Position numbers and translations under genes: made by a program. This document shows, in pieces, positions 2,887 through 28,230 of a stretch of 35,186 bases of DNA. The stretch is taken from positions 1 through 35,186 of IMG/VR virus record IMGVR_UViG_3300030372_002700; one strand, written 5' to 3'. Source of the stretch: a virus (taxonomy: Duplodnaviria > Caudoviricetes). The notes beneath the pieces are model-generated. The model was not told the origin of the DNA. It searched no databases and was given only the letters and a program-made list of their open reading frames with translations. Position 1 is the stretch's first letter, and every line of letters begins with the position of its first letter.

Positions 2887-3037
2887 TATATTAGTATGGG
2901 TTACTGCAATTATATCTATAGCTTCTGTTGTAGCAGCAATAACTCCAACACCTAAAGATGACCATTGGTTTAGTTACTTATACAAAGTAATAGATTGGTG
3001 TGCATTAAATGTTTTAAAAGCAAAGGATAAAGGATGA
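2873..3037 (+). CDS. Small membrane protein (TPTPKDD type; possibly holin-like), not in the ORF track
   Basis: 54 aa MTILNILVWVTAIISIASVVAAITPTPKDDHW...; strong RBS GAGGAGG; N-terminal TM helix. Confidence 0.7.
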   Translation: MTILNILVWVTAIISIASVVAAITPTPKDDHWFSYLYKVIDWCALNVLKAKDKG

Positions 3038-3195
3038 GTTGGTTAGAAAAAATGTGGAGCAAGGTTACTGGAACTGAAAAAATAAAAGTAAGAACCAGGA
3101 ATAAAAAAGGTCATTATGTTGCTGATGACAAATCAACACCAGATGTAGATGAAGCTTGGACAACAAAAAGAGTTAAAAAATCTAAAGAATCCTAA
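3034..3195 (+). CDS. Small basic hypothetical protein, not in the ORF track
   Basis: 53 aa MSWLEKMWSKVTG...KGHYVADDKSTPDVDEAW; ATGA and TAATG overlaps with both neighbours. Confidence 0.65.
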   Translation: MSWLEKMWSKVTGTEKIKVRTRNKKGHYVADDKSTPDVDEAWTTKRVKKSKES

Positions 3196-3575
3196 TGGCT
3201 AAATCACCCGATGCGTTTGTTTATAACGCTACACTTGATAGAATCGTTGATGGCGATACTTTTGATTGTATTTTAGATCTTGGTTTTGATGTAAAACTTC
3301 ACAAACAACGTGTTAGGCTTGCTGGTATAGATACACCAGAAAGCAGAACACGTGATCTTGCTGAAAAAAAACTTGGCCTTGCTGCAAAAGAAAGACTAAA
3401 AGAATTGTGTGTAGGCAATATAAAAATTAAATCGTTGGGCAAAGGTAAGTACGGTCGTATATTGGGCATACCTTATACAGAAGACGGCAGAGATATTTGT
3501 GATGTTCTTATTAAAGAAGGTCATGCCGTTGAATACGATGGAGGCAAAAAGAAAAAAGTTTGGGGTGATTACTAA
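3195..3575 (+). CDS. Thermonuclease (SNase) family nuclease
   Basis: Motifs VDGDT, VRLAGIDTPE and KYGRILG; no signal peptide. Confidence 0.9.
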   Translation: MAKSPDAFVYNATLDRIVDGDTFDCILDLGFDVKLHKQRVRLAGIDTPESRTRDLAEKKLGLAAKERLKELCVGNIKIKSLGKGKYGRILGIPYTEDGRDICDVLIKEGHAVEYDGGKKKKVWGDY

Positions 3576-3925
3576 TGGAATCAGCCGTAACTTTAATTCA
3601 AGAAGTTGGATTTCCTATTGCAGCAGCATTAGGGCTTGGTTGGTTTATTTACAAACTAATTATGCGTATTGTTGACGGTATGGAGACTAAACTTGATACT
3701 GTTGATGAAAAAGTAGAAGCACAAATAGCTGCTATAGAAGAACGACTTGGTACAAAACTTGATTCACAACATGGTATTTTGGTAGCATTAATAGATAGAG
3801 TGCGAAGTTTAGATAACGAAATTATAAGACAAGATACTTTAGTTAAAACTATTCTTGGCGTACCACAACTTATAGATAGCAATAAAATTGCAAAGGCGAA
3901 TAGAGATGACCAAAGAAAAGATTAA
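3575..3925 (+). CDS. Single-TM plus coiled-coil protein (YvrJ/holin-like N-terminus)
   Basis: VGFPIAAALGLGWFIY TM segment followed by a coiled coil; coupled to neighbours. Confidence 0.6.
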   Translation: MESAVTLIQEVGFPIAAALGLGWFIYKLIMRIVDGMETKLDTVDEKVEAQIAAIEERLGTKLDSQHGILVALIDRVRSLDNEIIRQDTLVKTILGVPQLIDSNKIAKANRDDQRKD

Positions 3926-4406
3926 CGAAACTGAAGCAGAAAAAACTAGAATACTAATTGGTGTAATGTTTTTTGGTTTAATTATGTTTATAGGAATAAT
4001 AGCTATAAATATAAAAGCAGATCAAATAGTACATAAATTTAAGTCGCCTAGTTTTAATGGCGTAGGAACATCATCTCATTACTTAACCATAGAAAACCAA
4101 GAACACACCCGCAAACTTACACTTAAAGAAGAAATTAAAGCCTTACAAGATGAAATCAAAAGAGAAAAAGAAAACTCTACTCTTGCAAGATTTATGCGTA
4201 ATCTTGAATCTAGGGTTTACGCAGAATTATCAAGACAGTTAGTTAATAACTTATTCGGAGAAACACCGCAAAGTTCAGGTACAATTACCCTAGAAGGCAA
4301 TACAATAGTATATACAAGTGATGGCACTACATTAACCCTAACTATAACCGAGCAAGATGGTACAATTACAACGATCGTTATTCCTATCGGTACTTTTACT
4401 TTCTAG
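3906..4406 (+). CDS. csgF: Curli assembly protein CsgF-like
   Basis: Hydrophobic leader, then IVHKFKSPSFNGVGTSSHYLTIENQE, resembling the CsgF N-terminal NPxFGG pore-binding peptide. FMRNLESRVYAELSRQL...LFG and a C-terminal beta-rich tail. Directly upstream of csgG. Start at 3906 preferred over 3888. Confidence 0.8.
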   Translation: MTKEKINETEAEKTRILIGVMFFGLIMFIGIIAINIKADQIVHKFKSPSFNGVGTSSHYLTIENQEHTRKLTLKEEIKALQDEIKREKENSTLARFMRNLESRVYAELSRQLVNNLFGETPQSSGTITLEGNTIVYTSDGTTLTLTITEQDGTITTIVIPIGTFTF

Positions 4407-5262
4407 TTGTTCTACATTTGATCAACTTGAAGATACTTACGAACATAGGTTTTCAGCTCATAATGTTGTAAGTATTCAAGATTTACAATCTAAAGAACTT
4501 AAAAACGTACCTATACCTCAGGTAAGTCCTGTAGTCGCTGTATATCCAACCGCATTTACAGATCAGACAGGACAAAGAAAAAGCAACAGCGAATTTGCAC
4601 TGTTTAGCACAGCTATAACCCAACAGCCAAATGCATTATTAATACGAGCTTTAAAACACGCAGGTAATGGTCAATTTTTTAGAGTCGTAGAAAGAGTTGG
4701 TTTAGATAACTTAACCAAAGAACGACAGCTCATAAGATCTGCAAGAGAACAAACTGCTAGTGAAGATGAAAAAAAGAAAGCTCTAAGGCCACTTTTATTT
4801 GCTGGTATTTTGATAGAAGGTGCCGTAATTTCTTATGAATCTAATTTAGAAAGTGGGGGTTCTGGTGCCAGATATTTAGGTGTAGGTAAAAGTGTACAAT
4901 ATAGAGAAGACAACATAACTGTAAGTTTACGTATGGTTTCTGTTGCAACAGGCGAAGTCCTGCTAGAAGTGTTAAGCCAAAAAACCATATTTAGCTACGG
5001 AAAATCTGAGGATATATTTAGGTTTATTGAAGCAGGTACCGAGCTAGTAGAAGTAGAAATGGGTAACGCAAGAAACGAGTCATCTACCATAGCTTTAATG
5101 AAAGCTATAGAGGGTGGTATATTAGAAATAGTAGAAACAGGATATGAAAAAGGATTTTGGGTTTTACAAAACAAAAACGAAGGAGTAGAATTAAACAATG
5201 AACAAATTAAAATTAATAAGCCTGATTGTGATGATGACTGCGTTGACGACATACGCGGCTGA
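4357..5262 (+). CDS. csgG: Curli secretion channel lipoprotein CsgG (CsgG/HfaB family)
   Basis: Lipobox LLLSSC. Motifs VAVY..FTDQTGQRK, FSTAITQ, FRVVERVGLDNLTKERQLIR, SGGSGARYLG, QYREDNITVSLRMVSVATGEVL. Confidence 0.93.
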   Translation: MVQLQRSLFLSVLLLSSCSTFDQLEDTYEHRFSAHNVVSIQDLQSKELKNVPIPQVSPVVAVYPTAFTDQTGQRKSNSEFALFSTAITQQPNALLIRALKHAGNGQFFRVVERVGLDNLTKERQLIRSAREQTASEDEKKKALRPLLFAGILIEGAVISYESNLESGGSGARYLGVGKSVQYREDNITVSLRMVSVATGEVLLEVLSQKTIFSYGKSEDIFRFIEAGTELVEVEMGNARNESSTIALMKAIEGGILEIVETGYEKGFWVLQNKNEGVELNNEQIKINKPDCDDDCVDDIRG

Positions 5263-5929
5263 TAACGAAATATATGTAGAACAATCTGGTACTGGAGCAA
5301 ATATAGACCTAGAACAATTAGGTATATCTAATATTATTGGGGGGTTAAACTCGACTCCTGGCAGCATAAATGCTTTTGATTTAGACGGAAATAGCATGAC
5401 ACTTGACATTAATATGATTGGTGCAACCAATAAATTTTTAGGTGATATATTTGCTGATAACTTTACAGGTTTTTATGAGTTTGATGGCGGCACTAATTCA
5501 TTTACCATACAAGTTGATCCTACAGATACTTACAGTTCAGATGGATCTAATCAAAATGTAGATGTTACAGGAAGCGGCAACACCTTTACTTTAAATCAAG
5601 GCACTTCAGCTTTAGCTTCACAACTTGATTTAGATTGGATTATTCAAGGATCTAACAACACAGTTACTTCTAATATAAACATAGATGGAGCAACCAATTT
5701 TATGGATATAGATGGAAGTGATAATACAGTTACATATACTGGTACTGGAGTAACAGCTAGTGCAGGTGGATATTTTTATCTTGACCACACAGGAGGTTCA
5801 AGAACCTTTAATATCCAACAACTAAGCACCCAAGATAATGACTGGCTTAAGATTATTTCAATTTCTGGCACTGCCGCTTCTACTGTTTGCGTTATTCAAA
5901 ACGACCAAGGTACAAGCACAAGCTGCTGA
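5198..5929 (+). CDS. Secreted curlin-repeat-like (beta-solenoid) protein
   Basis: Sec signal (MNKLKLISLIVMMTALTTYA). Repeated hydrophobic-x-Q/D-x-G-x-x-N units (IYVEQSG, IDLEQLGISNII, VDVTGSGNTF, WIIQGSNNTV, MDIDGSDNTV). N/G/D/T-rich and almost no basic residues. Confidence 0.7.
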   Translation: MNKLKLISLIVMMTALTTYAADNEIYVEQSGTGANIDLEQLGISNIIGGLNSTPGSINAFDLDGNSMTLDINMIGATNKFLGDIFADNFTGFYEFDGGTNSFTIQVDPTDTYSSDGSNQNVDVTGSGNTFTLNQGTSALASQLDLDWIIQGSNNTVTSNINIDGATNFMDIDGSDNTVTYTGTGVTASAGGYFYLDHTGGSRTFNIQQLSTQDNDWLKIISISGTAASTVCVIQNDQGTSTSC

Positions 5930-6956
5930 TATAGGAGATATTTCTGAACTAAATGGTTCAGCTCAAATCCTAAGAGATAAACCTTATGATGCAAATCTTA
6001 AATTTGCAATTCAAAGTAATGATGAGGCTATAACCAAAGATGGCCGTATGGCTATTACTTTTCTTGATGATTCTACAGTAAAACTTACAGAACATAGTCA
6101 GCTACTTATTGACGAGTACATATATGATCCAGACCCAAGCAAAGCAAAGATGGCTCTTACCTTTGGTCTTGGTACAGCTAGGTTTATTACAGGCAATTTA
6201 AACCGTATAGATAAACAAAATATCACTCTTAAAACACCTACAGCTAATATAGCTATACGTGGCACTGATTTTACGGCTACAGTTGATGAACTAGGGCGTA
6301 GCCTTATAATATTGCTACCAGACGCTCTAGGGCTCTCTAGTGGCGAAATAGAGGTGGTTACTGCTATGGGCACTGTTTTACTTAATAAACCATACGAGGA
6401 GACTACAGTAAGCGTATTCGAGTCAGCTCCAACAAAACCAGTAATTTTAGATTTAACACTAGATGTTATAGATAATATGTTGATAGTAACACCACCTAAA
6501 GAAGAAGTGCTAGTAGAAGAAGAAAACACCACTACAAAAGCAGATAGCGTGTTAGATTTTAATGATCTTGATATAGATTATCTTGCAGAGGACTATTTAA
6601 AAGAAGATAGTCTTGAATTTACAGAATTAGATATAAATTATCTTGATGTAAATTACCTTGAAGACCTTCTTAACGTTTTAGATGCTTTAGCTATTGCTGA
6701 AGAAGAAGATGTATTAGCACAAGCTACAAGCACGCAGATAACTGGAACTATGCTTGGCAAAGATCCTGACACGCAAATAACTGCTTTAATTACAGGAAAC
6801 GTAGTAAGTTTGCGTAGAGAGGTAAGTGAAAGTGTTAGGTTAGATTTAGATGGCAGTACTGCATATACAGTTATTTTGATACAAGATGGTATTTCTAATA
6901 CAATAAAAATTAATGGGGGAAGTGATAGCATTATTACTATCACTCAAAGTGATTAA
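5838..6956 (+). CDS. FecR-domain periplasmic protein
   Basis: Signal/TM, then the FecR core (ITFLDDSTVKLTEHSQLLI...GTARF...TPTANIAIRGTDF), an acidic linker and a beta-rich C-terminus. Confidence 0.85.
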   Translation: MTGLRLFQFLALPLLLFALFKTTKVQAQAADIGDISELNGSAQILRDKPYDANLKFAIQSNDEAITKDGRMAITFLDDSTVKLTEHSQLLIDEYIYDPDPSKAKMALTFGLGTARFITGNLNRIDKQNITLKTPTANIAIRGTDFTATVDELGRSLIILLPDALGLSSGEIEVVTAMGTVLLNKPYEETTVSVFESAPTKPVILDLTLDVIDNMLIVTPPKEEVLVEEENTTTKADSVLDFNDLDIDYLAEDYLKEDSLEFTELDINYLDVNYLEDLLNVLDALAIAEEEDVLAQATSTQITGTMLGKDPDTQITALITGNVVSLRREVSESVRLDLDGSTAYTVILIQDGISNTIKINGGSDSIITITQSD

Positions 6957-8717
6957 ATGAAACGACTATTATTACCTGTGCTTATAATGCTATCTTTACC
7001 ATTATTATTTCAAAGCACGCCTACAGAAATATTAAAACTAAAAACTTTTGATGCTTTAATACAAACACCAGAAGAATCAGGTAACTTTACAATACTTAAT
7101 ATAACCGAAGAAGATGTGGAACGTGAAGGTGGTTGGCCTTTACCCAGACAAAGATTAGCTGAAATACAATTACAAATATTAGGTAAAGGTGCAGTAGGTG
7201 TTGGTTGGGTTATATCTTTTCCACAAGCAGACAGAATGGGTGGAGATGAAGACTTCGCTAGATCTTTGGGATACGCACCATCTGTTATAGCTATGTTTGA
7301 AGATGGTAAAGGTAATTACCCTGCATCTCCTGGAACCGTTGTACTTGGAGATGATAATGGTGGTATAATAAGCACGGGAGTTAAGCAGAACCTACTTCTC
7401 TTATCCAATCACACACTTCAAGGTTTAGCGATTGCTCCCACAGATGTAGATCAACTTGTTAGAAGAATACCTCTTTTAGTAAAAACTCCTGAAAATGAAT
7501 GGATACCTAGTTTTGGCACACAAATATATAAAGCTTTATTTAATGTAAAAACTTATATTATAAAAACTAATGATAATGGTATATCAGAAATATCAATAAG
7601 AGGAATACCACCAGTTAAAACAGACAGCTTTGGCCGTAAATGGATTAGTTGGATAGATACACCACAAACAGACTTACAAGAAATGGAAGTAAATGGTAAG
7701 TTTGTATTTATAGGTGTAACTGCAAACGGAGTAATGCCGCAAGTAGCAACACCTGTAGGCTTGCTAGAGCCACATAAAATACAAGCAGCACTCGCTGAAT
7801 CAATATTAATACAAGATAGTCCATACATTCCTGATTGGTCATTGGCTGCTGAACTAATGATGTTTATTATATTTGTTAGTTTAGTTTGGTTTGCACTTCA
7901 TTATTTAGGTATAACTTGGGGTATCACTGTTGCAACCATGTTAATGGTTACTACTGGTAGTTTAGGATATTACTTTATAAGCAAAGGTTTGTTAGTAGAT
8001 GTATCTTGGACACTTATATCAGAGTTTATTTCAGGATCTATAGCTTTCTATTTAAGGTTTAGACAACAATATAAATTACGTCAACAGATTAAAAAACAGT
8101 TTGAACATTACCTTGATCCACGCCAAGTCAAAAAATTACAAGATGATCCTAGTTCTTTAGTATTAGGTGGTGAACGTAGATACTGCACATTTTTATTCAC
8201 AGATGTAAGGGGATTTACTGCTTTATCTGAACGACTAGAGCCAGAAGAAGTTACTGAAATTATGAACAAAGCTCTTACAATACAAGCTGACACCGTTAAA
8301 AGATATGATGGTATGGTAGATAAGTATATAGGCGATGCTATGATGGCTATTTTTAACGCTCCTATGGATACGCCAGGACATGAAAATTCTGCAGTTTTGT
8401 GTGCTATGGAAATACAAGACAAAATAAAAATGGCTGATTTAGATGTAGAAATAGGCATAGGTGTTAATAGCGGTTATGCAGTTATTGGGAATATGGGCAG
8501 CGAAACTAGATTTGATTATACGGCTATTGGAGATGCAGTAAATCTTGCAGCAAGACTAGAGAGTTCGACTAAGGATGTTGGAGAAGATATTGTTATAGGT
8601 TATGATACTATCAGTGCAAGTAGCTTTAGCGATCAAATTATGTTAAAAGAGCTTGATAGTATTTTTGTAAAAGGTAAAGAAAAACCAATTAAAATATACA
8701 CTATACAATATGGTTAA
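6957..8717 (+). CDS. CHASE2-domain class III adenylate cyclase (membrane-bound)
   Basis: N-terminal TM. CHASE2 motifs (GGWPLPR, PTDVDQLVRRIPL, ATPVG...HKIQA). Three TMs. Cyclase motifs FTDVRGFT, DKYIGDAMMAIF, DYTAIGDAVNLAARLE with intact metal-binding Asp residues and the ATP-specifying Lys/Thr. Confidence 0.93.
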   Translation: MKRLLLPVLIMLSLPLLFQSTPTEILKLKTFDALIQTPEESGNFTILNITEEDVEREGGWPLPRQRLAEIQLQILGKGAVGVGWVISFPQADRMGGDEDFARSLGYAPSVIAMFEDGKGNYPASPGTVVLGDDNGGIISTGVKQNLLLLSNHTLQGLAIAPTDVDQLVRRIPLLVKTPENEWIPSFGTQIYKALFNVKTYIIKTNDNGISEISIRGIPPVKTDSFGRKWISWIDTPQTDLQEMEVNGKFVFIGVTANGVMPQVATPVGLLEPHKIQAALAESILIQDSPYIPDWSLAAELMMFIIFVSLVWFALHYLGITWGITVATMLMVTTGSLGYYFISKGLLVDVSWTLISEFISGSIAFYLRFRQQYKLRQQIKKQFEHYLDPRQVKKLQDDPSSLVLGGERRYCTFLFTDVRGFTALSERLEPEEVTEIMNKALTIQADTVKRYDGMVDKYIGDAMMAIFNAPMDTPGHENSAVLCAMEIQDKIKMADLDVEIGIGVNSGYAVIGNMGSETRFDYTAIGDAVNLAARLESSTKDVGEDIVIGYDTISASSFSDQIMLKELDSIFVKGKEKPIKIYTIQYG

Positions 8718-8925
8718 TAAAAAAATGACAGTAAACGATGTTGCAGAAAGGCTTACAAAGTTAGAAACAATATCACACGAGCGTTGGAAAACTGCATTCA
8801 ATGAGTTTTCTGATATAAAACAAGAAATCACTTATATTAATTCAACTATGAAAGCCGCAACCTTTGGTGTGTTTGGTTTTCTTGGTGCAATTGGTATAGC
8901 TGTTTTAACGAGCATATTAATATGA
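8710..8925 (+). CDS. Coiled-coil plus C-terminal TM protein (lysis-associated, XhlA-like architecture)
   Basis: 71 aa; ERLTKLE coiled coil and hydrophobic C-terminus; precedes holin and endolysin. Confidence 0.55.
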   Translation: MVNKKMTVNDVAERLTKLETISHERWKTAFNEFSDIKQEITYINSTMKAATFGVFGFLGAIGIAVLTSILI

Positions 8926-9401
8926 AAGGATTATTAAAAAATATAGTAGGTGCTGTTGCACCAACATTAGGCACAGCAATTAGTGGGCCTCTAGGTGGAA
9001 TGGCCATGGGTAAGATAGCAGAAGTGCTAGGTGTATCTAATGATCAAAAATCCGTACAACAAGCAATACAAAACGCTACTCCAGAACAAATGATGGAACT
9101 TAAAAAAGCTGAACAAGAGTTTGAAGTACAAATGAAAGAACTTGATGTAGATGTATTTAAGCTAGAAGTAGCTGACAAACAAAACGCTAGAGGTATATTT
9201 AGCAAAGATTGGACTGCTCGTATTATAGGTTTATTCACCATAGGTGGATTTTTAGGGTATATATTTTTAGTAACACTACAACCACCTGAACAAAACTCTG
9301 AAGCACTTATAAATTTAGTGCTTGGTTATCTTGGAGGGTTAGCAAGTGCAATTATTTCGTTTTATTTCGGAGCATCTCACACCAGCGATAAAGGAGAGTA
9401 A
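8922..9401 (+). CDS. Putative holin (3TM / GTA-holin-like)
   Basis: VAPTLGTAISGPLGG N-terminus, C-terminal TMs ending IISFYFGAS; directly before the endolysin. Confidence 0.7.
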   Translation: MKGLLKNIVGAVAPTLGTAISGPLGGMAMGKIAEVLGVSNDQKSVQQAIQNATPEQMMELKKAEQEFEVQMKELDVDVFKLEVADKQNARGIFSKDWTARIIGLFTIGGFLGYIFLVTLQPPEQNSEALINLVLGYLGGLASAIISFYFGASHTSDKGE

Positions 9402-9402
9402 C

Positions 9403-9846
9403 ATGAATATATCACAAGAAGGTTTATCTCTTATTAAAAAATTTGAAGGTTGTGAACTAGAAGCTTACAAATGTGCAGCAGGAGTTTGGACATATGGATG
9501 GGGTTCAACTAAAGGTGTAAAAGAAGGCGATACAATTACACAAGAAGAAGCAGATAGTTTACTTGTAGAAGAAATGTCTGAATACGAAGGATATGTTAAT
9601 GATATGGTTACTTCTGATCTAAAACAAAATGAGTTTGATGCTTTAGTATCTTGGGTTTATAACCTTGGGCCAAATAATTTATCTTCAAGCACATTATTGC
9701 AAAGACTTAACAACAAAGATTGGGATGATGTACCCAATCAAATTAAAAGATGGAATAAAGCTGGTGGGCAAGTGAAACAAGGCTTGGTAAGAAGAAGAGA
9801 AGCAGAAGCTTTGCTATTTGAAGGCAAAGAATGGCATGAGGTATAA
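9403..9846 (+). CDS. Endolysin, GH24 lysozyme
   Basis: KKFEGCELEAYKCAAGVWTYGWG catalytic region, QNEFDALVS, GLVRRREAEALLF. RBS AAGGAG before ATG 9403. Confidence 0.93.
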   Translation: MNISQEGLSLIKKFEGCELEAYKCAAGVWTYGWGSTKGVKEGDTITQEEADSLLVEEMSEYEGYVNDMVTSDLKQNEFDALVSWVYNLGPNNLSSSTLLQRLNNKDWDDVPNQIKRWNKAGGQVKQGLVRRREAEALLFEGKEWHEV

Positions 9847-20700: not shown

Positions 20701-21175
20701 AGCTGCAGGTATAGCTGCTACTGTTATATTTACACCTTTAGCCACCCTGCCGATAGTAGCAGGTCTTGCAGTTGCTAGGTCTTTATTTGGTAATAGAGCT
20801 TTTGTAAGATTGATGACTAAAACAGATCCAGGTTCCATTACACAGGCTTTTAAAATATTTAACAATACATTAAGACAATTTGGTTTACGATATGTTGATG
20901 GTCAAATTCAACCCTTTGCTGCTTCTGTAGCAGATGTTATTGAAACAGGTGTACAAGATGCTGCGACTGAGGCTGGAGTTACTGGCGGTGATGTAGAGGG
21001 TATTACAGATGAAGGTCTTAACATATTCCAACAACTAAGAGAACAAGTTACTGCACCACTCAAAACCTCAGAACTACAACTACCAGATGTTCAACCTATG
21101 CAATCACCAACAGATCCACTATCTCAAGAACGTATAGACTTTGCAGAACAAGTTGCTGGTAGGCCAATAGTTTAA
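17756..21175 (+). CDS. Large putative internal virion (ejection) protein
   Basis: 1139 aa, helical, with Gly/Ala hydrophobic segments near both ends; last gene of the late operon. Confidence 0.6.
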   Translation: MPRFRVNIAPGVSQIVDAATEDDARKIIKSEIAKGTVSPFFDELFFDYETGVNNKELRRKLGRAETMAEEDKVLNDILTRLSKTKSPLEQEDVIDGEVGSSGYIRNTKGQLALTPEGLEILGLPIQQRKLQDGTIVNLNTIIDENSFNLKTGDLADFSGIAGPVIGTIVSLLPQARIVRGLAALLGGRQPMARMLAAGTGSAAGKAGEEYLDAQEGFQLQDSEEIKKLIGYEFGIGSIGQGLFGEVPAKLYNLLLGKRAPIDNQRLMNVMSKNLSYKDVVKLDNDLGRAATPKEIARAVRDGRVKKFDWKYSRGAIPAQASLEKMLPGRYQQISEQVLGNNRDIANKNALFAELDYILNGIKSERAALDSYISQSSKGRLDESVNQALQKLRNQEKDVTESLKKMLKDIGSDVIEIGNYGQVPSRREFGETLKDVLFRSRSAVMRESGERYGTVDQKFLDIADPRNKEEIVRTVGGREAVTGPAQEARIINKTINSVVNKYVLQAQRLVKDYKNSSNTWNLQAPGTDIKTSVVQQLDAVLENMRKRSQAVLDNATDESGELIAGINLKQIRNDVSRLKDFHTEVVGRSPEGRLLSDVVKVFDNYKPGQQNADSMLTELADTGKAQIKADLKKAGIDVNPILSNRITMAIDDLRAANKLHYERMRPFDKVKMDSLISNAQKGSISADDVYKRAILSGAPGEFSDIVNALRGYDEYLARTGQATFKNGKQVLKEVELKSQIKRRLFNDAFRVATKDDLTSVNFTDFAKQMKKFDMENQGKFDELFRDPVTKRSSGKDVLRAIDQLNMIGPRIKPQDLKSLVNDFTKDFKGKGLDAYASGRKFINELENLAKASDERLKFEANRAISRLPEVGIEETVNSIFRPGSAANIIKLKNTVDDEVFNSIQQASMQKLLAKSIDFNGKGKVTDVFKHQNLKTALDSYGDETLEAMFGRELAKDLRTFQKEIDILTLGEVGRGAGGAGGLVAAGIAATVIFTPLATLPIVAGLAVARSLFGNRAFVRLMTKTDPGSITQAFKIFNNTLRQFGLRYVDGQIQPFAASVADVIETGVQDAATEAGVTGGDVEGITDEGLNIFQQLREQVTAPLKTSELQLPDVQPMQSPTDPLSQERIDFAEQVAGRPIV

Positions 21176-21630
21176 CTCTTTTCCCATTTAAACTTTGCTT
21201 GACCTGTGACTGGTTGCCATTCTCTACCTGGTCTTGTAGTCCATCCTTTGTGGTTTTTATCAGTAGAAGTTTCGCCTATTATTTTATAACCAGCAGCTTT
21301 CAAACTAGATCCAGATTCTGATTGTAACGTATATGTAATCATTCTCTTGCCACCCATTTGTTGCCATATTCTCCAACATTTACCATACAGAAAAGAATTT
21401 GTATTGTTCGGTGACTTGTTATTTGTACACACCCTTACTGCTTCTGCTGTATACCCATCATCTAAAGTTCTAGATATGGGTCTTCCTACTATTGCTACAC
21501 CTACGAGCTGATCATCATAAGATGCACCAATGGCAAACTTTGCACCCCTTACTGGTTTGTTGTGTCTATGAAAATTATCGACAAATTCATTAGCATCACG
21601 TATGGTCATTGGCACTACTTGTAATCTCAT
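21172..21630 (-). CDS. XF1762/Mom-like GNAT-fold protein (candidate DNA modification enzyme)
   Basis: ANEFVDNFHRH, LVGVAIVGRP, RVCT, SFLYG, ITYT..SESGSSLKAAG motifs; coupled to the primase gene. Confidence 0.65.
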   Translation of the reverse strand: MRLQVVPMTIRDANEFVDNFHRHNKPVRGAKFAIGASYDDQLVGVAIVGRPISRTLDDGYTAEAVRVCTNNKSPNNTNSFLYGKCWRIWQQMGGKRMITYTLQSESGSSLKAAGYKIIGETSTDKNHKGWTTRPGREWQPVTGQAKFKWEKS

Positions 21631-23747
21631 TCTTCAAAAAAAGTAGGATCAACCGCAACAAACCTTTTAGCTGGTCTGCCTTTACCACCAACTTTAATCT
21701 CAACCTCTTGTATCTCCCCTGCATTTTTAAGCCTTTCAATAATCTCTTTTACTTCATAAGACTTCATGCTTCTAAATAATTCGTGTCTATCTACTTCACG
21801 TTTAGATATGCCCTCGCCATTCCTAGATCTAATAAATGATAATACTTGTTTAATCTTAGATTCTGTTGCACTACTTGCCACCTTATCTCTACATGCTTCT
21901 ATAAATAATAAGTCGTAGTATCTAATAAAATCTACAGCCCAACGTGTTACATCTCCTGTAATGGCTTTAGCGTCTGCATTTGTTGCTAAAGTACATAACA
22001 AAGACAAACGCATAGCTTTTTCCTTAGAACGGCTTAGAAGTGGCTCTAGGTTATCTTTTTCTAGTATATCTTGTCGTTTAACTATTTCTCGTGCAAAGTC
22101 TTGTAGTATTTCTTCTGATTCTCTATCAAAATTTAAAATTATTTGATCTAAATCTAATTCTGCATTATCACGAGATAAATCAGTCATTCCTCCCCTAGAT
22201 CTTCTAACATAGTTCACCCAATTAACTATAGATGTTGGTGGCGATTTAAATTTTTTAAGCTCACCTACTCTTCTTGGTTCTGTAGATTCAACAACCACAA
22301 AACGGTTTAAGAAGCCGTCTGCAATTCTGCCACCATTTAATGCTTTATAAAAATTCTTTGGTACTGATAAACCAACGAGTGTTATGGCTGGCTTATGCGT
22401 AACACGGCTCATCATCATTTCTTTATATTGTTCTTGTACATTCATTAAAGAATAGTTATCTGGTCGTAAAGTACCATGACAACGACCCCATGCCTCCATA
22501 AGTGTTTGTATTCCATCTTCTCTATTTGTATTGGTTGACGCACCTATGGCCTCTAATCTTTTACCAAACTCGTCCATTATAGTTATTTGTGTTGGCCTCA
22601 TCTTAAGAACAGAATGCACAGCACCACTTGATGTATAACCATCTCCTACTACAAGCTTTTCGTGATCACTAGCATTGAGCACCGACTCAACAAATGTTTT
22701 TATGTTTTCCTTACCCTGACCAGACTTAGCAATACCCATGAAATACATAGAAGAAAAGTTATTCATATTGGTTCTATAAATACGTCCACAAGTAACACTA
22801 GCTAAAGCTAATGCACCTATGAGTGATAACTCTGGTTGTGGAACTTGTGCTATCTCTTCACAAAACTTAAACATATCTTTTAAAAGTCCTGGTGGGTTGA
22901 ATAAGTCTTTAGGTTTCTGTATGCTTTCTGAAGCTTGAATGAACAATGGTGCTATCCTGTTCTTTCTATCGTGAGTGTTTTTAACGCTCTCTACAACGCT
23001 ATCTATCTCTGTTTGTGGCAATGGTGGATTGTTATTTTTATTCCAGTTCTGCAAAAATATTTTTACAAATTGTATATTTACGTTCTTTGATATTAAGTAT
23101 CCAGCTATTCTAGCAGCTCCATCATTCCTGGATCCTTCCATAACACCATCAAGTGAGAATGGTGCAGTTTGTACTCCTGTATCTGTTTTTGGAACTCCCG
23201 TAATTTTTTGAAACTCAACTTCTGTAAAGTCTGGTAAATCATTATGGTCATGTATTTTCCAATCTGGAAAAGTAATTGGTTTATAAACTTGTCCGTTGGC
23301 GTGCCTGTTATATGGTGCAATGATTAATCCACCCATACCCCTAATATCTATTAATCTTTCTATGGGAGTTTCAGCAGTTCTTCTGGTTGCAAAAGTAGTA
23401 TAGTTTTGTGGATTGTTATAATAGTAATGCATACCTTTACCAGTTATAACTTTAAATGGACAAGCAGGCATATTTTTTTCTACCCAGTCCATAGCCTCTG
23501 GAGAATCTGCATCGACAACAACAAATTTACCGCAAACAAGTGCAACTTGTAAGTTATCTCTGCCCTTAAACCATGACTCTACAAGGGTTCTATCAGGCCT
23601 TACCTCTTTGTATTGTTCCCAACTACCTAGAAAAGATGGTGGTTTTTTGTTAGATCTTTGTAAAGGAACTACATTATAACCATCGTCATAATAGGCAAGA
23701 GCTTGCTCTAAGGATGTATCATCCTCAGTAATGTTAAGCTGAAACAC
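21627..23747 (-). CDS. Bifunctional primase-polymerase with PriCT and C-terminal helicase-like (DUF3987-type) domain
   Basis: VVPL...KKP, VVVDAD, TGKGMHYYY, IDIRGMGGLIIAP (Prim-Pol); GSRND (PriCT); AKSGQGKE, MDEFG, DGFLNRF (P-loop). Confidence 0.9.
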   Translation of the reverse strand: MFQLNITEDDTSLEQALAYYDDGYNVVPLQRSNKKPPSFLGSWEQYKEVRPDRTLVESWFKGRDNLQVALVCGKFVVVDADSPEAMDWVEKNMPACPFKVITGKGMHYYYNNPQNYTTFATRRTAETPIERLIDIRGMGGLIIAPYNRHANGQVYKPITFPDWKIHDHNDLPDFTEVEFQKITGVPKTDTGVQTAPFSLDGVMEGSRNDGAARIAGYLISKNVNIQFVKIFLQNWNKNNNPPLPQTEIDSVVESVKNTHDRKNRIAPLFIQASESIQKPKDLFNPPGLLKDMFKFCEEIAQVPQPELSLIGALALASVTCGRIYRTNMNNFSSMYFMGIAKSGQGKENIKTFVESVLNASDHEKLVVGDGYTSSGAVHSVLKMRPTQITIMDEFGKRLEAIGASTNTNREDGIQTLMEAWGRCHGTLRPDNYSLMNVQEQYKEMMMSRVTHKPAITLVGLSVPKNFYKALNGGRIADGFLNRFVVVESTEPRRVGELKKFKSPPTSIVNWVNYVRRSRGGMTDLSRDNAELDLDQIILNFDRESEEILQDFAREIVKRQDILEKDNLEPLLSRSKEKAMRLSLLCTLATNADAKAITGDVTRWAVDFIRYYDLLFIEACRDKVASSATESKIKQVLSFIRSRNGEGISKREVDRHELFRSMKSYEVKEIIERLKNAGEIQEVEIKVGGKGRPAKRFVAVDPTFFEE

Positions 23748-23748
23748 A

Positions 23749-24093
23749 CTAAGCTTCTTGTGCTATATCATTTACTGATCCAAAGATGCATTCAAAATCT
23801 AATCTGCCATCAGTAGCTTTTATAATTTGTTTGGCTTGATTTATAGTTGGCTGCCTATAACCATATCTCCATGACTTACATGAAGCCTCCGAACAACCAA
23901 AATCCTCTGCAGCTTTTTTCTGTCCTAGAAATTCAATGTATTCTTTTAAAGTGTATCTTTTTACTACTCTATCAGTGTGATTAGGTTTTACTCCAAGTGT
24001 TTCAAATTCTTTTAATTTTTGCGATGATAGCGACTTCATTCTATGATAATAGTTAGCTTGCCATACTAAATTTTCTTTGTTGGTATCTTCCAT
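23749..24093 (-). CDS. Cro-like HTH DNA-binding protein
   Basis: GQKKAAEDFGCSEASCKSWRYGYRQP helix-turn-helix; RBS GAGGAG supports a start at 24093. Confidence 0.75.
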   Translation of the reverse strand: MEDTNKENLVWQANYYHRMKSLSSQKLKEFETLGVKPNHTDRVVKRYTLKEYIEFLGQKKAAEDFGCSEASCKSWRYGYRQPTINQAKQIIKATDGRLDFECIFGSVNDIAQEA

Positions 24094-24126
24094 GTTTTTC
24101 TCCTCGTAACTTTTATTTGAAAAATA

Positions 24127-24162
24127 TTCACATATTGTAGATAAGTAGTATATAATATGCAA
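24127..24162. promoter_or_regulatory. Overlapping divergent sigma70-type promoters
   Basis: Minus strand TTGCAT-17-TACAAT; plus strand TTCACA-18-TATAAT; lies between divergent genes. Confidence 0.6.
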
Positions 24163-24190
24163 GTTAATTTTTATTTAAAGGAGATAGAGA

Positions 24191-24913
24191 ATGGAATTAT
24201 CAAGTAGAATAGTATCTCCGCAAAAGTTAGTACAGGATCAAGGTGCAAAAATCTTGGTGTATGGAATGGCTGGAGCGGGTAAAACAACATTAGCCAAAAC
24301 TTGTCCAGGCAAGGTACTTGTTATAAGTGCTGAAGCTGGATTGTTATCTATTAAAGATGCAAGCAATGTAGAGGCTATTGAAGTAAAAGAAGCAGCAGAA
24401 GTTATGGAACTTCATGATGCTTTGAAGTCTGGTAAATTACAATATGACACAGTGTGCTTAGATTCAGTATCTGAAATAAGCGAGATCTTATTAACATGGG
24501 AGAAATCTCGTAGCAAAGATCCACGTATGGCATATGGTAATGTACAAGAATCTGTAACAAATTTAATGCGTGCTTTTAGAGATCTAAATATGCACGTTTT
24601 GTTCTTATGTAAAGAAGATGTGGTAAATGATGATGGCGTACTTAGACACGCACCAAAAATGGTTGGTACTAAGTTAGGCGAATCAATTACATATTTTTTT
24701 GATGAGGTTCTTGCTTTACGCATCATTGAAGATCAAGATGAAGACGGCAAGAATATCCAAAACAGATGGTTGCAAACCGTCTATGGACAAGGTTATAAAG
24801 CAAAGGATCGTAGTGGTAAACTAGAAAACTTTGAAAAACCTGATATAACTGCTCTAATTGAAAAGTTAGGGTTTTCATTAACTAACGACAATATGGGAGG
24901 AGAAAATGTCTGA
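24191..24913 (+). CDS. AAA_24 / Sak4-like ATPase (phage recombinase)
   Basis: ILVYGMAGAGKTT Walker A, VCLDSVSE Walker B, YFFDEV, AKDRSGKL. Confidence 0.85.
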   Translation: MELSSRIVSPQKLVQDQGAKILVYGMAGAGKTTLAKTCPGKVLVISAEAGLLSIKDASNVEAIEVKEAAEVMELHDALKSGKLQYDTVCLDSVSEISEILLTWEKSRSKDPRMAYGNVQESVTNLMRAFRDLNMHVLFLCKEDVVNDDGVLRHAPKMVGTKLGESITYFFDEVLALRIIEDQDEDGKNIQNRWLQTVYGQGYKAKDRSGKLENFEKPDITALIEKLGFSLTNDNMGGENV

Positions 24914-25367
24914 TTTTGGTGATGTAGAATTTTTTGATAACTTAGAGGAAATGTCATCTGGTGGCTTACCTCTAGCACCAGATGGTGAACACAATGCAAC
25001 GGTTATTGCTACAGACAAGTATAAGTCTAAAGCAGGTAACCATACGCTAAAGGTTACATTTCAATTAGATGGCGGTAAATATCGTGATCATAACGAATGG
25101 TATAACCTTTGGGCTACTAATGAAGACAACAAAAGAATAAGCACTGAAATATTTACCAGGCTTACTAAAGCTGTTGGCTTTAAAAAGTATCCAGAGAATC
25201 ATGGTGATTTTGTGGGTAAAAAACTAATACTTAAAACTGAACAAATTGATGATCAATTTGAAGGTGATAACGGTGTGGTAAATACTAAGAAGACTAAAAT
25301 CAGATTATATTTACCAGAGGCTGATTCAGATATGAGTCCACCTAAAGAAGCTGTACCGCCTTTCTAA
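24906..25367 (+). CDS. DUF669-like ssDNA-binding protein
   Basis: PDGEHNATV..SKAGN..LKVTF; acidic/Pro tail ending PPF; follows the Sak4-like gene. Confidence 0.75.
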   Translation: MSDFGDVEFFDNLEEMSSGGLPLAPDGEHNATVIATDKYKSKAGNHTLKVTFQLDGGKYRDHNEWYNLWATNEDNKRISTEIFTRLTKAVGFKKYPENHGDFVGKKLILKTEQIDDQFEGDNGVVNTKKTKIRLYLPEADSDMSPPKEAVPPF

Positions 25368-25381
25368 TATTAGTTTATAAA

Positions 25382-25513
25382 TTAAGGGGCTTTGTGCCCC
25401 TTTTTTTGTGCCTCTAAAATTAACAAAAACAACTCATCTTGCAATCGTTGTGTTCTTTCTTTTGCTTTTTTTAGATCTTTTTTGGTTTGTTTTATTTGTT
25501 CTGATAAATTCAT
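25382..25513 (-). CDS. Small coiled-coil hypothetical protein (43 aa)
   Basis: MNLSEQIKQTKKDLKKAKERTQRLQDEL..., AGGA upstream; not in the ORF track. Confidence 0.45.
   Translation of the reverse strand: MNLSEQIKQTKKDLKKAKERTQRLQDELFLLILEAQKKGHKAP
25384..25407 (+). terminator. Rho-independent terminator
   Basis: AAGGGGC-TTTGT-GCCCCTT plus T run, at the convergence of two transcription units. Confidence 0.85.
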
Positions 25514-25583
25514 TTTTTATCCTGCATATACGCATATATAGTTAAAAGTAAAAGACCTATCACAGCATAAAAACTAAGATCCA

Positions 25584-25802
25584 TCATCTGTTCTCCATTT
25601 TGTTTCTAAGTCTAGTTAGATACCATATAGCTTTATCTATATCTTGGATATTTGCATCTTTATGATCTTCACGCCAAATGTATTTGAACGCTGCTGCTTT
25701 GCAATAGCCTTTAAACTCTTCAAAGGTTAAGGCTGATTCTATTGCGTCTATACACTCAATAGGGCCTTTCTTGTAATGTGGGGGGTTTATGTTATCTGTC
25801 AT
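25584..25802 (-). CDS. DUF3310 family protein
   Basis: DNINPPHY...IECIDAI...KYIWR...DIDKAIWYL signature. Confidence 0.85.
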   Translation of the reverse strand: MTDNINPPHYKKGPIECIDAIESALTFEEFKGYCKAAAFKYIWREDHKDANIQDIDKAIWYLTRLRNKMENR

Positions 25803-26016
25803 TTTGTTTCTCCAATATTTTTTCTGCTGTTTCTGCTGATTTTTTTAGACTTTTAAAATTTTGATGTGCTAATTTTTGTAACGCTTGCCAATAACAATCG
25901 TATTTGTTAGCTAAATATTTACAGGTAACAAGTTCACTCATGCCTTGATTTGTGTAAGTCTTTATTTCTTTTGCAATAATTTCTCTTGCTTTGCTTATAT
26001 CATTAGCATCAATCAT
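25792..26016 (-). CDS. Hypothetical protein
   Basis: 74 aa, overlapping neighbours in the minus-strand operon. Confidence 0.55.
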   Translation of the reverse strand: MIDANDISKAREIIAKEIKTYTNQGMSELVTCKYLANKYDCYWQALQKLAHQNFKSLKKSAETAEKILEKQNDR

Positions 26017-26176
26017 TGTGTTTTACCTTTTTATTAGATGTTTCTTCCCATACGTTTTTAAGTTTGGTTATATCTGTGGTTTTTTTGTTTTTAAAAATCT
26101 TATCCCAGCCAAGACTCCATTTATTTTTGTTTGTTGGTCTTTGTTTACTACCTTTACCACCATGCCATTTAGTCAT
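26009..26176 (-). CDS. Small basic phage protein (GGKGSKQRP...WDKIF type), not in the ORF track
   Basis: 55 aa MTKWHGGKGSKQRPTNKNKWSLGWDKIFK...; fills the gap with overlaps on both sides. Confidence 0.65.
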   Translation of the reverse strand: MTKWHGGKGSKQRPTNKNKWSLGWDKIFKNKKTTDITKLKNVWEETSNKKVKHND

Positions 26177-27062
26177 TTAATTCTTCTCTGTAAAAGTTGC
26201 CAGTATCTAGCTCAACAACATTAGGGCTGTTGTATATGGTTGCTTGTTTGCCACCACTCCAGACTACCTTGTTGTATTCTTCTAAGTAATCACTTAAAAA
26301 GTTCCAACCTACTTCCATGTCGGTATGGTTCATTTTAAATACTTTACTTGCATAAGGTGGTTTTTTTTCCTGTGCTACAAACATAAAGTCATGCACCTGA
26401 AAACCAGCTTTTTCAAAACCACGCTTATACCAAGCAGCTTGTAGATCATAAGAGTACCGCCTTACCGAATTGGTAAAACCCCTGACGGAACAATCACTGG
26501 TTGTTTTATAATCTACAAGCACTATGGCATTTTCCCCATGTGGTTTATCAAATGGGTTCAAAACTACATCAGCCCTGGTCTTACATAATAAATCTTGCTC
26601 ATACCAAAAAATAGACACCTCGTAGGGTGAATCAAAAGTGCTGGGATACTCTTTATCTGGATTTAGATAAGCTCTCGCCTCCGTTACCAAGCTGTTTTGC
26701 ATACTATATATGGTATCTTTGTCCTTTTCATTAATAACAATAAGACCTTTATCAAGACTTTCTTTCTTAAGAGCTTTGTTAGTATTGGTGTATGGAGATC
26801 CAGTTATAGTAACTACATCACTAAAAAATGCTCCCTCACCCTCTACAATTAATGAATGTGCCGCAGATCCAAAGTTCATAGCTGGTGTCTGCTCTATAAC
26901 TTCTTCCAAAGCGTGTAATTGACTTTGACTAAATCTTCTTATGTGTGAAGAAGATATGCCTGGCCCATTATGATAAAAGTTATTATCCATGTTAGGAAAG
27001 TAATAAGCATCGCCTACCTTTTTATGTGGTAGATCCTCTAACATATCTGGTAACTTACTCAT
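26169..27062 (-). CDS. PD-(D/E)XK exonuclease (RecE / ExoVIII C-terminal-like)
   Basis: YH..PGISSS, FGSAAHSLIVE, CKTRAD, VDYKTT, YDLQAAWY, FVAQEK. Confidence 0.88.
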   Translation of the reverse strand: MSKLPDMLEDLPHKKVGDAYYFPNMDNNFYHNGPGISSSHIRRFSQSQLHALEEVIEQTPAMNFGSAAHSLIVEGEGAFFSDVVTITGSPYTNTNKALKKESLDKGLIVINEKDKDTIYSMQNSLVTEARAYLNPDKEYPSTFDSPYEVSIFWYEQDLLCKTRADVVLNPFDKPHGENAIVLVDYKTTSDCSVRGFTNSVRRYSYDLQAAWYKRGFEKAGFQVHDFMFVAQEKKPPYASKVFKMNHTDMEVGWNFLSDYLEEYNKVVWSGGKQATIYNSPNVVELDTGNFYREELND

Positions 27063-27259
27063 GATGCCTCCTTGTCTACAGTTACTTTATATAGATCATC
27101 TACAATAGACTGTAGTTCTTTGATAGCAACACCACACTGCCAAATAGCAATATTGAGCCTGTCTTGTTTTTGTTGTAATTCATAGTCCTCTTTTGAGGGA
27201 TTTGTGTAACTGATTACTTCGTCAATAATAGCAGTTACGTCTAATTTAGGTTTTTCCAT
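27059..27259 (-). CDS. Hypothetical protein
   Basis: 66 aa, RBS GGAG, first gene after the leftward promoter. Confidence 0.6.
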   Translation of the reverse strand: MEKPKLDVTAIIDEVISYTNPSKEDYELQQKQDRLNIAIWQCGVAIKELQSIVDDLYKVTVDKEAS

Positions 27260-27282
27260 TTTACTTCTCCAAATAAATGAGT

Positions 27283-27332
27283 TTGTATTATTGCACTAAC
27301 TAATGTATGATGTCAACCATAAGTAACCAATT
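27283..27332. promoter_or_regulatory. Divergent promoters with an adjacent GTAACCAAT box
   Basis: Minus TTGACA-18-AATAAT (TG extended); plus TTGTAT-17-TATGAT; box at 27323-27331. Confidence 0.6.
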
Positions 27333-27353
27333 TTTATTTATGAGGAGTAAGAT

Positions 27354-27557
27354 ATGGGAAGATCAAATGATTTGTATATGATGATGCGTTTATCGTATGA
27401 ACAAGCTACAGATGATTACAACAACAAAAAAACAGATTCAATAGTAAATGCTTACAGTAAGTATTACAAAGAGAACGTTGGTATGACCTGTTATGATCCG
27501 CAAGGAGATATTATAAATTTTTATGATGAAGATAACAGCCAGGAATGTTCATTATGA
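27354..27557 (+). CDS. Hypothetical protein
   Basis: 67 aa, RBS GAGGAG. Confidence 0.6.
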   Translation: MGRSNDLYMMMRLSYEQATDDYNNKKTDSIVNAYSKYYKENVGMTCYDPQGDIINFYDEDNSQECSL

Positions 27558-27630
27558 TTGAGTTTTTATTTTGGTTTTTTTTAGCAATAATAGGCATACC
27601 AGCCTTGTTTATTGTTTTGTTTGATAGAAT

Positions 27631-27825
27631 ATGAACAGCGTTACTGAATTAAAAAAAGTTAAATGCAGTATATGTAATGGTTACATAAAACCATTAAAGA
27701 ATGATGACGGAGAGGTTGTTTGGGAGCATGGAAACAATGCTGAACCTGTAAACTCTGGCCGTTGTTGTGATGATTGTAATTGGACAAAGGTAATACCAGC
27801 TAGGCTGTTACAGATGGAGAAGTAG
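27631..27825 (+). CDS. Small zinc-binding protein
   Basis: CSIC...GNNAEPV...GRCCDDCN cysteine pattern. Confidence 0.7.
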   Translation: MNSVTELKKVKCSICNGYIKPLKNDDGEVVWEHGNNAEPVNSGRCCDDCNWTKVIPARLLQMEK

Positions 27826-27857
27826 CGGTATTATGAGTTATCGTGTTATGATGCGGA

Positions 27858-28097: not shown

Positions 28098-28230
28098 ATT
28101 TTTGTCTATTATTGTCATTTTGTCATGACAGCTAAAAACATGATAAGAATGCGGGTTTCGGGATTATTGTATTTTTTTCATTTTTGTCATAAGAGAATAA
28201 CAAAACTTAGTTAAATAAATAAGAAAATAC

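What the first reader, a model, noticed from the sequence alone, without database searches (positions are those of the whole stretch)
3575..8717. Phage-encoded trans-envelope signalling cassette: CsgF-CsgG pore, curlin-like protein, FecR and CHASE2-adenylate cyclase
Seen: five intact, overlapping or abutting genes encode an outer-membrane pore (CsgG with lipobox, CsgF-like), a secreted curlin-repeat-like protein, a periplasmic FecR-domain protein, and an inner-membrane CHASE2 sensor fused to a class III cyclase with all catalytic motifs. Established: CsgG/CsgF form the type VIII secretion pore, and FecR plus CHASE2-cyclase pairs occur in bacterial envelope signalling loci. To my recollection csgF/csgG have been reported in some large marine myophages, but I know of no characterised phage system coupling them to a cyclase. 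Inference: this is a surface-to-cytoplasm relay in which assembly or ligand contact of the exported beta-solenoid is passed through FecR to CHASE2 and read out as cAMP in the infected cell. Possible uses are sensing superinfection or cell contact, timing lysis, or rewiring host CRP regulons. No csgE, csgC or csgD is visible, so this is not a standard curli biofilm operon.
Basis: partly seen in the sequence, partly recalled or inferred. Interest (0 to 1): 0.93.

Follow-up and report, generated by a model that had tools for sequence, protein, structure and literature searches.

The report
Known phage curli-pore cyclase cassette
A marine phage carries an intact copy of an already published six-gene block (curli-type outer-membrane pore, curlin-like protein, FecR-domain protein, membrane cyclase), in which the FecR-domain protein likely tethers an exported surface structure to an enzyme predicted to make cAMP; its role in infection is untested.

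Summary
The genes are real, intact and travel together, but the block is the published pelagiphage T8SS/curli module (Wittmers 2022, PMC9599517; also in HTVC008M and Melnitz). This scan has noted it before in other genomes (look-alikes in 28). It has six genes, not five. The first (3575-3925), called a histidine kinase in print, is a small membrane coiled-coil protein without kinase features. Additions here: (1) the FecR-domain protein is built like a tether: a periplasmic domain resembling PupR and the MpIBP pore plug, an acidic disordered linker, and a weakly curlin-like C-terminus; (2) the whole operon occurs in cellular context in two Caulobacteraceae genome bins, against the published claim that bacteria lack it; (3) one phage lineage keeps pore, curlin and FecR but has no cyclase in the slot, so cAMP looks like an optional read-out; (4) CRP rewiring is doubtful in SAR11 (cNMP-binding domain in 15 of 151 genomes), and the host is unknown; (5) 39 of 97 cassette loci also encode spanin-like pairs, arguing against a lysis pore. 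Binding and cyclase activity are untested. Verdict: new member of a known kind, interest 0.3.

The parts
3575..3925 (+). Small membrane protein (one hydrophobic helix, about aa 11-29, then coiled coil); the gene in the position that Wittmers 2022 calls 'histidine kinase'; phage-specific part of the block
   Evidence: Homolog upstream of CsgF in 70 of 70 evaluable loci, one copy in 53 and two in 17; no kinase family in Pfam or NCBIfam; no conserved His, 16 of 34 aligned homologs have none; nearest named Atlas clusters BhlA/YvrJ at 0.86-0.87, a lead only; absent from L086/L087
3888..4406 (+). CsgF-like pore partner with signal/anchor helix (start may be ATG 3906)
   Evidence: PF10614 E 4.8e-16; hydrophobic segment aa 22-40
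4357..5262 (+). CsgG outer-membrane lipoprotein pore
   Evidence: PF03783 E 1.3e-45; lipobox here and in 148 of 155 homologs; 47% to HTVC008M CsgG
5198..5929 (+). Secreted curlin-like beta-solenoid with degenerate repeats and a C-terminal Cys pair
   Evidence: Profile hits 8C50 and 8ENQ; model pLDDT 84.8; VIA top hit 8C50; two Cys in the last 15 aa in 29 of 47 aligned sequences
5838..6956 (+). FecR-domain protein: signal peptide, periplasmic beta domain (about 5919-6482), acidic disordered linker with Leu every fifth residue (about 6483-6728), C-terminal beta domain ending in a curlin-type half-motif (about 6729-6953)
   Evidence: PF04773; model; PupR 6OVM Z 15.2 rmsd 2.6, MpIBP plug 5IX9 Z 6.9 rmsd 2.2; linker 25 D/E versus 3 K/R in 82 aa; pentads; tail tests
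6957..8717 (+). Inner-membrane CHASE2 sensor fused to a class III, predicted ATP-specific cyclase
   Evidence: PF05226 and PF00211; nearest solved structure P. aeruginosa CyaB 3R5G, E 1.8e-59; catalytic residues conserved

Best explanation
This is an intact phage copy of the published viral curli/T8SS module, and it likely builds a pore-anchored surface structure on the infected cell, whose state would be relayed by a FecR-domain tether to a CHASE2 cyclase predicted to make cAMP. Shown: gene content, order, domains and co-travel. Inferred steps: CsgG and CsgF form an outer-membrane pore; the curlin-like protein is exported and docks as a short, capped solenoid rather than a long fibre; the C-terminal curlin-type end of the FecR protein enters the pore or joins the solenoid, while its folded N-domain is too large to pass and stays in the periplasm as plug and CHASE2 ligand; the cyclase is an optional read-out. 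The least supported step is the purpose: most likely sensing contact at the cell surface (a second phage or a neighbouring cell) to tune the infection, with an unidentified cAMP receptor.
For: Co-travel: curlin, FecR and cyclase downstream of CsgG in 69 of 69 evaluable loci, of 82 examined. Tether anatomy: folded N-domain (pLDDT mostly above 90), disordered linker, folded C-domain. The N-domain matches the PupR cell-surface-signalling domain (Z 15.2) and the MpIBP N-terminal domain 5IX9 (Z 6.9), which that paper describes as too large to pass the TolC pore and so retaining the adhesin (PMC5550230 passages). Tails score 5 bits or more against the curlin-like profile in 36 of 87, versus 31 of 870 shuffles and 1 of 87 N-domain pieces; a terminal hydrophobic-x-hydrophobic-x-Gln motif occurs in 80 of 87. 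In bacteria the same N-domain is fused to other export cargo (FHBP_C/TbpB barrels or RTX repeats), often directly behind a SlipAM/TPR barrel gene, and 23 of 74 such loci hold a CHASE2 protein. Precedents: S. meliloti NsrA to CHASE2 cyclases (PMC13001267 passage); CHASE2-cyclase, FecR, TPR and phosphodiesterase clusters in Campylobacterota (PMC9239204 passage). A cellular copy has a cyclic-nucleotide phosphodiesterase-like gene directly upstream. The cyclase-less lineage departs at 3 of 37 conserved N-domain positions, including P134, against 0-2 departures in 150 cyclase-linked copies (one event only).
Against: No binding, export or cAMP production has been measured. The curlin likeness of the FecR tail is weak: HHalign probability 9.5%, E 0.0034; reversed tails also score 5 bits or more in 16 of 87; stricter curlin patterns fit only 30 of 87 and 5 of 87; and fold searches of the model gave only FHA-like matches (Z up to 3.6) for that domain. 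The 5IX9 match is below Z 8 and covers 72 residues. Three near-identical loci lack the cyclase in the slot. CHASE2 varies more than its supposed partner among close relatives (mean 76% identity, against mostly 80-94% for whole FecR). No cNMP-binding domain was found in 5 of 5 phage records, and only in 15 of 151 Pelagibacteraceae genomes. The host is unknown.
Confidence: 0.42

Rival explanations
1. Working curli biogenesis: the phage makes the infected cell grow amyloid fibres that aggregate cells ('sibling capture') or shield it from superinfection; FecR and cyclase only regulate this (Wittmers 2022; Zaragoza-Solas 2020 as cited there).
For: Pore, CsgF and a curlin-fold protein are all present; myophage copies often add a second curlin, once with a PA14 domain (HTVC008M); transcripts reported in marine metatranscriptomes (PMC9599517 passages).
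Against: Repeats are degenerate (12 Gln in 243 aa, four canonical half-motifs) and 29 of 47 end in a Cys pair that may cap the solenoid; no clumping was seen in Melnitz infections (PMC9004378 section 9); it does not explain the conserved linker and tail of FecR.
Confidence: 0.25
2. Lysis device: CsgG acts as a pinholin- or spanin-like pore that times or completes lysis (Buchholz 2022), with the small membrane protein as a holin-like partner.
For: In these podoviruses the block sits directly before holin-like and lysozyme genes; the small protein's nearest named clusters are BhlA/YvrJ (below 0.9).
Against: 39 of 97 cassette loci reaching the lysozyme also encode an overlapping spanin-like pair (assigned by architecture; loci not dereplicated); the operon exists in bacteria without phage context; in HTVC008M and Melnitz it lies among replication and baseplate genes.
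Confidence: 0.13
3. Host reprogramming: the cyclase floods the cell with cAMP to rewire CRP regulons, and the pore and curlin are a separate function.
For: Complete catalytic motifs under strong conservation; in one myophage record the cyclase lies several kb away from FecR.
Against: Pelagibacteraceae rarely have cNMP-binding proteins (15 of 151) or a class III cyclase (2 of 151, both on short contigs and at least one phage-like); the cyclase keeps its periplasmic sensor and abuts FecR; the host is unknown, so this stays open for non-SAR11 hosts.
Confidence: 0.1
4. Uptake channel: an ungated CsgG pore imports cofactors or iron carriers, with FecR as iron sensor (one option in Wittmers 2022).
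For: No CsgE gate in the window; FecR family match.
Against: The protein has only a signal-peptide-length N-terminus, so no cytoplasmic anti-sigma part; no TonB receptor or ECF sigma among the 34 window proteins scanned; the curlin-like gene would be unnecessary.
Confidence: 0.08

Closest known systems
Pelagiphage T8SS/curli module of HTVC023P-type podoviruses and pelagimyophages (Wittmers et al. 2022, PMC9599517; HTVC008M KC465899; Melnitz MZ577097, PMC9004378)
   Same: Same genes in the same order: small upstream gene(s), CsgF, CsgG, curlin, FecR, cyclase; 31-47% identity to the cultured copies.
   Different: One upstream gene and no second curlin. The carrier seems to lack PolA (none in the 65%-complete window or in two near-complete relatives), whereas PolA is core in HTVC023P-type phages. 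The 'histidine kinase' label is not supported.
Bacterial curli / type VIII secretion (CsgG, CsgF, CsgA/B)
   Same: CsgG lipoprotein, CsgF, and a beta-solenoid related to CsgA 8C50/8ENQ.
   Different: No CsgE, CsgC or CsgD; degenerate, Cys-ended repeats; FecR-domain protein and CHASE2 cyclase in the same operon.
CHASE2-cyclase envelope signalling: S. meliloti NsrA-CyaD1/D2/K-Clr and Campylobacterota CHASE2-cyclase/FecR/TPR clusters
   Same: Outer-membrane component, FecR domain and CHASE2 cyclase linked; similar loci found here with cyclase, SpoIIE or HD outputs, including in Pelagibacter.
   Different: The outer-membrane part is CsgG/F rather than a TPR beta-barrel; no Crp-type receptor is encoded with it; it is carried by a phage.
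RTX adhesin retention module (MpIBP RIN, PDB 5IX9) and PupR/FecR cell-surface-signalling domain (6OVM)
   Same: Fold of the N-domain and the proposed plug-linker-exported-domain layout.
   Different: Sec-type signal peptide and CsgG rather than T1SS/TolC; no membrane-spanning anti-sigma part, TonB receptor or sigma factor.

Membership tests
Pelagiphage viral T8SS module (Wittmers 2022) | CsgF, CsgG, curlin repeat gene and FecR in conserved order, often followed by a cyclase | tested here: met
Pelagiphage viral T8SS module (Wittmers 2022) | One or two small genes directly upstream (labelled HK in the paper) | tested here: met
   Homologous small gene present, also in HTVC008M and Melnitz; that these are the paper's 'HK' is inferred from position
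Pelagiphage viral T8SS module (Wittmers 2022) | Phage context | tested here: met
   Tail fibre, lysozyme, virion, primase and small terminase genes
HTVC023P-type pelagiphage (carrier) | PolA in the core genome | tested here: inconclusive
   No PF00476 in the window (65% complete) or in relatives G556 (100%) and G558 (98%); present in G557
HTVC023P-type pelagiphage (carrier) | Pelagibacter host | not testable with these tools
   Nearest cultured relatives by the virion protein are only 33-40% identical and have several hosts
Histidine kinase (gene 3575-3925) | HisKA helix pair with conserved His and a HATPase domain | tested here: not met
   116 aa; no kinase family hit; no conserved His
Class III adenylyl cyclase | Two metal-binding Asp, substrate Lys and Thr/Ser, catalytic Asn and Arg | tested here: met
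   nearest structure CyaB; residue roles are established knowledge, recalled
Class III adenylyl cyclase | Measured cAMP synthesis | not testable with these tools
   needs an assay
Curlin (CsgA/B) | Beta-solenoid of curlin repeats | tested here: met
Curlin (CsgA/B) | Regular Asn/Gln repeat motif and amyloid polymerisation | tested here: inconclusive
   Pfam curlin E 0.35; four canonical half-motifs; polymerisation not testable
Canonical enterobacterial curli operon | CsgE, CsgC and CsgD present | tested here: not met
   none among 34 window proteins scanned
FecR/PupR anti-sigma factor | Periplasmic FecR domain fold | tested here: met
   PF04773; 6OVM Z 15.2
FecR/PupR anti-sigma factor | Cytoplasmic sigma-binding domain, with ECF sigma and TonB receptor partners | tested here: not met
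   Only about 27 aa precede the domain; no such partners in the window

The most novel reading that the evidence does not exclude
The FecR-domain protein is an unrecognised type VIII secretion substrate that is never released. Its curlin-type C-terminus threads the CsgG pore, its acidic Leu-pentad linker (about nine pentads, perhaps one per subunit of the nonameric pore) stands in for CsgE, and its N-domain is the protein ligand of CHASE2. That would make the block a phage-borne contact sensor and one case of a general bacterial design (exporter + FecR-tethered cargo + CHASE2 output), with a native curli version in Caulobacteraceae.
Probability: 0.3. Interest if true: 0.75.

Novelty: new member of a known kind. 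Interest (0 to 1): 0.3.

Why it matters
The block is common in ocean phages (291 close CsgG relatives; 6,645 FecR relatives at E up to 0.001) and its function is still untested. As a discovery it is not new. Its value here is that the open question becomes easier to test: a specific tether model with defined domain borders, a cellular copy with its own phosphodiesterase-like gene, and a natural cyclase-less variant. If the FecR domain is the CHASE2 ligand, it would help explain a widespread sensor family.

Tried and rejected
Complex prediction of the FecR N-domain with CHASE2: the queue was full and no job ran, so there is no verdict on binding. Chimera or artefact: rejected. Histidine kinase for 3575-3925: rejected. 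Cellular origin of L083-L085 and L088: these full-length hits in genome bins carry phage-type genes or are short contigs, so I treated them as misbinned viral contigs. No CHASE2 structure appeared among the 60 of 65 PDB hits shown. Foldseek gave no hit at E up to 0.001 for the curlin model. Curlin 8C50 was not listed for the FecR model, which is inconclusive because the C-domain was not folded alone. Promoter and terminator scans were near chance (24 versus 26.7; 6 versus 3.2); no tRNAs. The one RNA run held only scattered low-depth contigs (10 of 30 bins): no evidence on expression. A joint skipping 2964-9433 had only 25 letters on one side and was not used. The careful tree did not finish; the quick one was used. 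The full-length FecR type was found in 1 of 401 Caulobacterales genomes searched, the query genome itself, so the cellular operon is rare. Literature: CsgG/FecR/CHASE2/curlin with at least 3 terms gave 0 papers; CHASE2 with FecR gave 3 listed; a 2023-onward search listed no functional test among the 20 of 395 shown. Subscription papers and figures were not seen.
Full report
Observation. Pfam supports CsgF, CsgG, FecR, CHASE2 and a class III cyclase. The curlin-like protein has no significant Pfam hit itself (E 0.35). A profile of 47 relatives hits the CsgA structures 8C50 and 8ENQ, and its model (pLDDT 84.8) is a beta-solenoid with 8C50 as top VIA match, tied with SufBD-type solenoids. The cyclase keeps D416, K456, D460 and R533 in 61 of 61 viral copies, and N529 and T/S522 in 60 of 61; the roles of these residues are established knowledge. 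A sixth gene, 3575-3925, belongs to the block. The window is a 35-kb, 65%-complete virus record with tail fibre, lysozyme, virion, primase and terminase genes. Flat GC, the matching independent contig L001 and a bridging contig at the 5' boundary exclude a chimera. Holders are marine metagenomes.

Distribution. A CsgG scan found 291 close relatives and kept 80. With two cultured phages added (82 loci), curlin, FecR and cyclase follow CsgG in 69 of 69 loci long enough to judge, and the small gene plus CsgF precede it in 70 of 70. A second set of 80 myophage-type loci has the same order, usually with two small genes and a second curlin. Starting instead from a neighbouring virion gene, 48 of 80 loci show the block, 6 show a different secreted module in the same slot, and the rest are too short. 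Three near-identical loci keep small gene, CsgF, CsgG, curlin and FecR but run straight on to the holin-like gene; their records (27-51% complete) hold no cyclase. These counts are loci, not independent lineages, and some contigs were fetched twice.

What is known. Wittmers et al. 2022 (PMC9599517; abstract, passages, section 6 and a supplement search seen) describe this module in nine HTVC023P-type podovirus genomes and in pelagimyophages: 'HK', CsgF, CsgG, CsgA/B, FecR, often a second curlin and a cyclase, with transcripts in marine samples. CHASE2 is absent from their main text but used as a label in the supplement. Buchholz et al. 2022 (PMC9004378; passages and part 1 of 2 of section 9) propose a pinholin or secretin role and saw no clumping. 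GenBank records of HTVC008M and Melnitz annotate the genes. Figures of these papers could not be seen. Earlier notes of this scan list look-alikes in 30 windows of 28 genomes; the 8 shown were all filed as known.

Additions. First, the upstream gene is not a histidine kinase: 116 aa, one hydrophobic helix, a coiled coil, no kinase family and no conserved His. Second, the FecR protein has three parts. The N-domain matches PupR (Z 15.2, rmsd 2.6, 135 aligned) and, more weakly, the MpIBP domain 5IX9 (Z 6.9, rmsd 2.2, 72 aligned), which is described as a periplasmic plug too large for its pore (PMC5550230 passages). The linker is acidic and disordered, with Leu at every fifth position also in distant homologs (median 101 aa between anchor columns in 57 of 72 distant rows). 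The tail ends in a motif like the curlin half-repeat given in PMC10192328 (passages): 80 of 87 have the terminal pattern, and 36 of 87 score 5 bits or more on the curlin-like profile against 31 of 870 shuffles. Against this: reversed tails score in 16 of 87, stricter patterns fit 30 and 5 of 87, HHalign gives 9.5%, and the fold search returned only weak FHA-like matches for this domain.

Third, bacteria. A genome scan found 275 relatives and kept 80. Six were near full length. Four of these look viral. Two, L086 and L087 (Caulobacteraceae bins), carry CsgF-CsgG-curlin-curlin-FecR-CHASE2 cyclase among cellular genes; 18 of 26 flanking proteins scanned hit cellular families, and a phosphodiesterase-like gene lies directly upstream in L087 (below the family cut-off). 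They lack the small gene and have slightly lower GC than their flanks. In a quick tree of 30 cyclases they group with the two viral clades apart from five other bacterial CHASE2 cyclases, nested in neither (midpoint root; six non-cyclase rows and near-duplicates left out), so the direction of transfer is open. The type was found in 1 of 401 Caulobacterales genomes searched. This conflicts with the published statement that FecR and cyclase are not in bacterial T8SS operons. In the other 74 loci only the N-domain matches; 23 hold a CHASE2 protein. In a scanned subset (82 proteins) the domain is fused to FHBP_C/TbpB or RTX cargo, often behind a SlipAM/TPR barrel gene, with cyclase, SpoIIE or HD outputs, including in Pelagibacter. 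This fits passages on NsrA, the Campylobacterota clusters and a Burkholderia LysM-FecR/CHASE2 kinase operon.

Mechanism. Inferred: CsgG/F make the pore; the curlin-like protein is exported and docks as a short capped solenoid (terminal Cys pair in 29 of 47); the FecR tail follows it into the pore while the N-domain is retained and contacts CHASE2; the cyclase reports the state of this tether. The cyclase-less lineage suggests that the anchored structure is the core and cAMP an optional output. That lineage also departs at 3 of 37 conserved N-domain positions, including P134, which is kept in all 150 cyclase-linked copies; the myophage copy with a distant cyclase departs at none. This is one event, so only a hint. 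The cAMP receptor is unknown: none in 5 phage records, cNMP-binding domains in 15 of 151 Pelagibacteraceae, a class III cyclase in 2 of 151 (short contigs, one clearly phage-like), CHASE2 in 34 of 151. A lysis-pore role is weakened because 39 of 97 cassette loci also carry a spanin-like pair. The host is unknown, and the carrier seems to lack PolA, so it may be a podovirus group outside the strict HTVC023P type.

Verdict. A real, conserved and still unexplained module, already in print. New member of a known kind; interest 0.3. The tether model stands at about 0.4; its boldest form has probability 0.3 and would deserve 0.75.

Noticed in passing
window 8922-9401 and loci L001-L080, L269-L348: The two-helix 159-aa membrane protein before the lysozyme and an overlapping spanin-like gene pair were mutually exclusive: 59 loci had only the former, 44 only the latter, none both or neither (loci not dereplicated). 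It may be an alternative outer-membrane lysis component.
   Followed up: partly
L312:4172-7845; also L308, L310, L311, L315, L325: Relatives without the curli block carry another module in the same slot: an Asn/Thr-repeat secreted protein, a 750-aa secreted acidic protein (virus-only Atlas clusters; weak NIDO lead at 0.81) and a 113-115 aa membrane coiled-coil protein; never together with the block.
   Followed up: partly
L086:4001-10058 and L087:4083-10103: Cellular CsgF-CsgG-curlin-curlin-FecR-CHASE2 cyclase operon in two Caulobacteraceae genome bins, one with a phosphodiesterase-like gene upstream.
   Followed up: yes
L090, L098, L117, L123, L128, L143 (Pelagibacter and relatives): Native CHASE2-SpoIIE gene next to TPR/beta-barrel and FecR-domain genes in SAR11; CHASE2 in 34 of 151 genomes. 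The phage FecR domain could cross-talk with it.
   Followed up: partly
window 6552-6689: About nine Leu-Asp-x-x-x pentads in the acidic FecR linker, conserved at about 30% overall identity; the number is close to the pore's ninefold symmetry, which is speculation.
   Followed up: partly
L052:5636-6310 and L083:1694-2854: DNA methyltransferase-like genes inserted between FecR and cyclase (named from sequence motifs, not scanned).
   Followed up: no
window 21172-28905: Replication and recombination set of Mom-like protein, Prim-Pol primase, Cro-like, Sak4, SSB, ExoVIII and small terminase, with no PolA in the window or in two near-complete relatives.
   Followed up: partly
L083-L085, L088, L349: Phage cassette contigs placed in bacterial genome bins (Marinimicrobia, Parvibaculum, Flavobacteriaceae, Pelagibacteraceae); probably misbinned, not host evidence.
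   Followed up: partly
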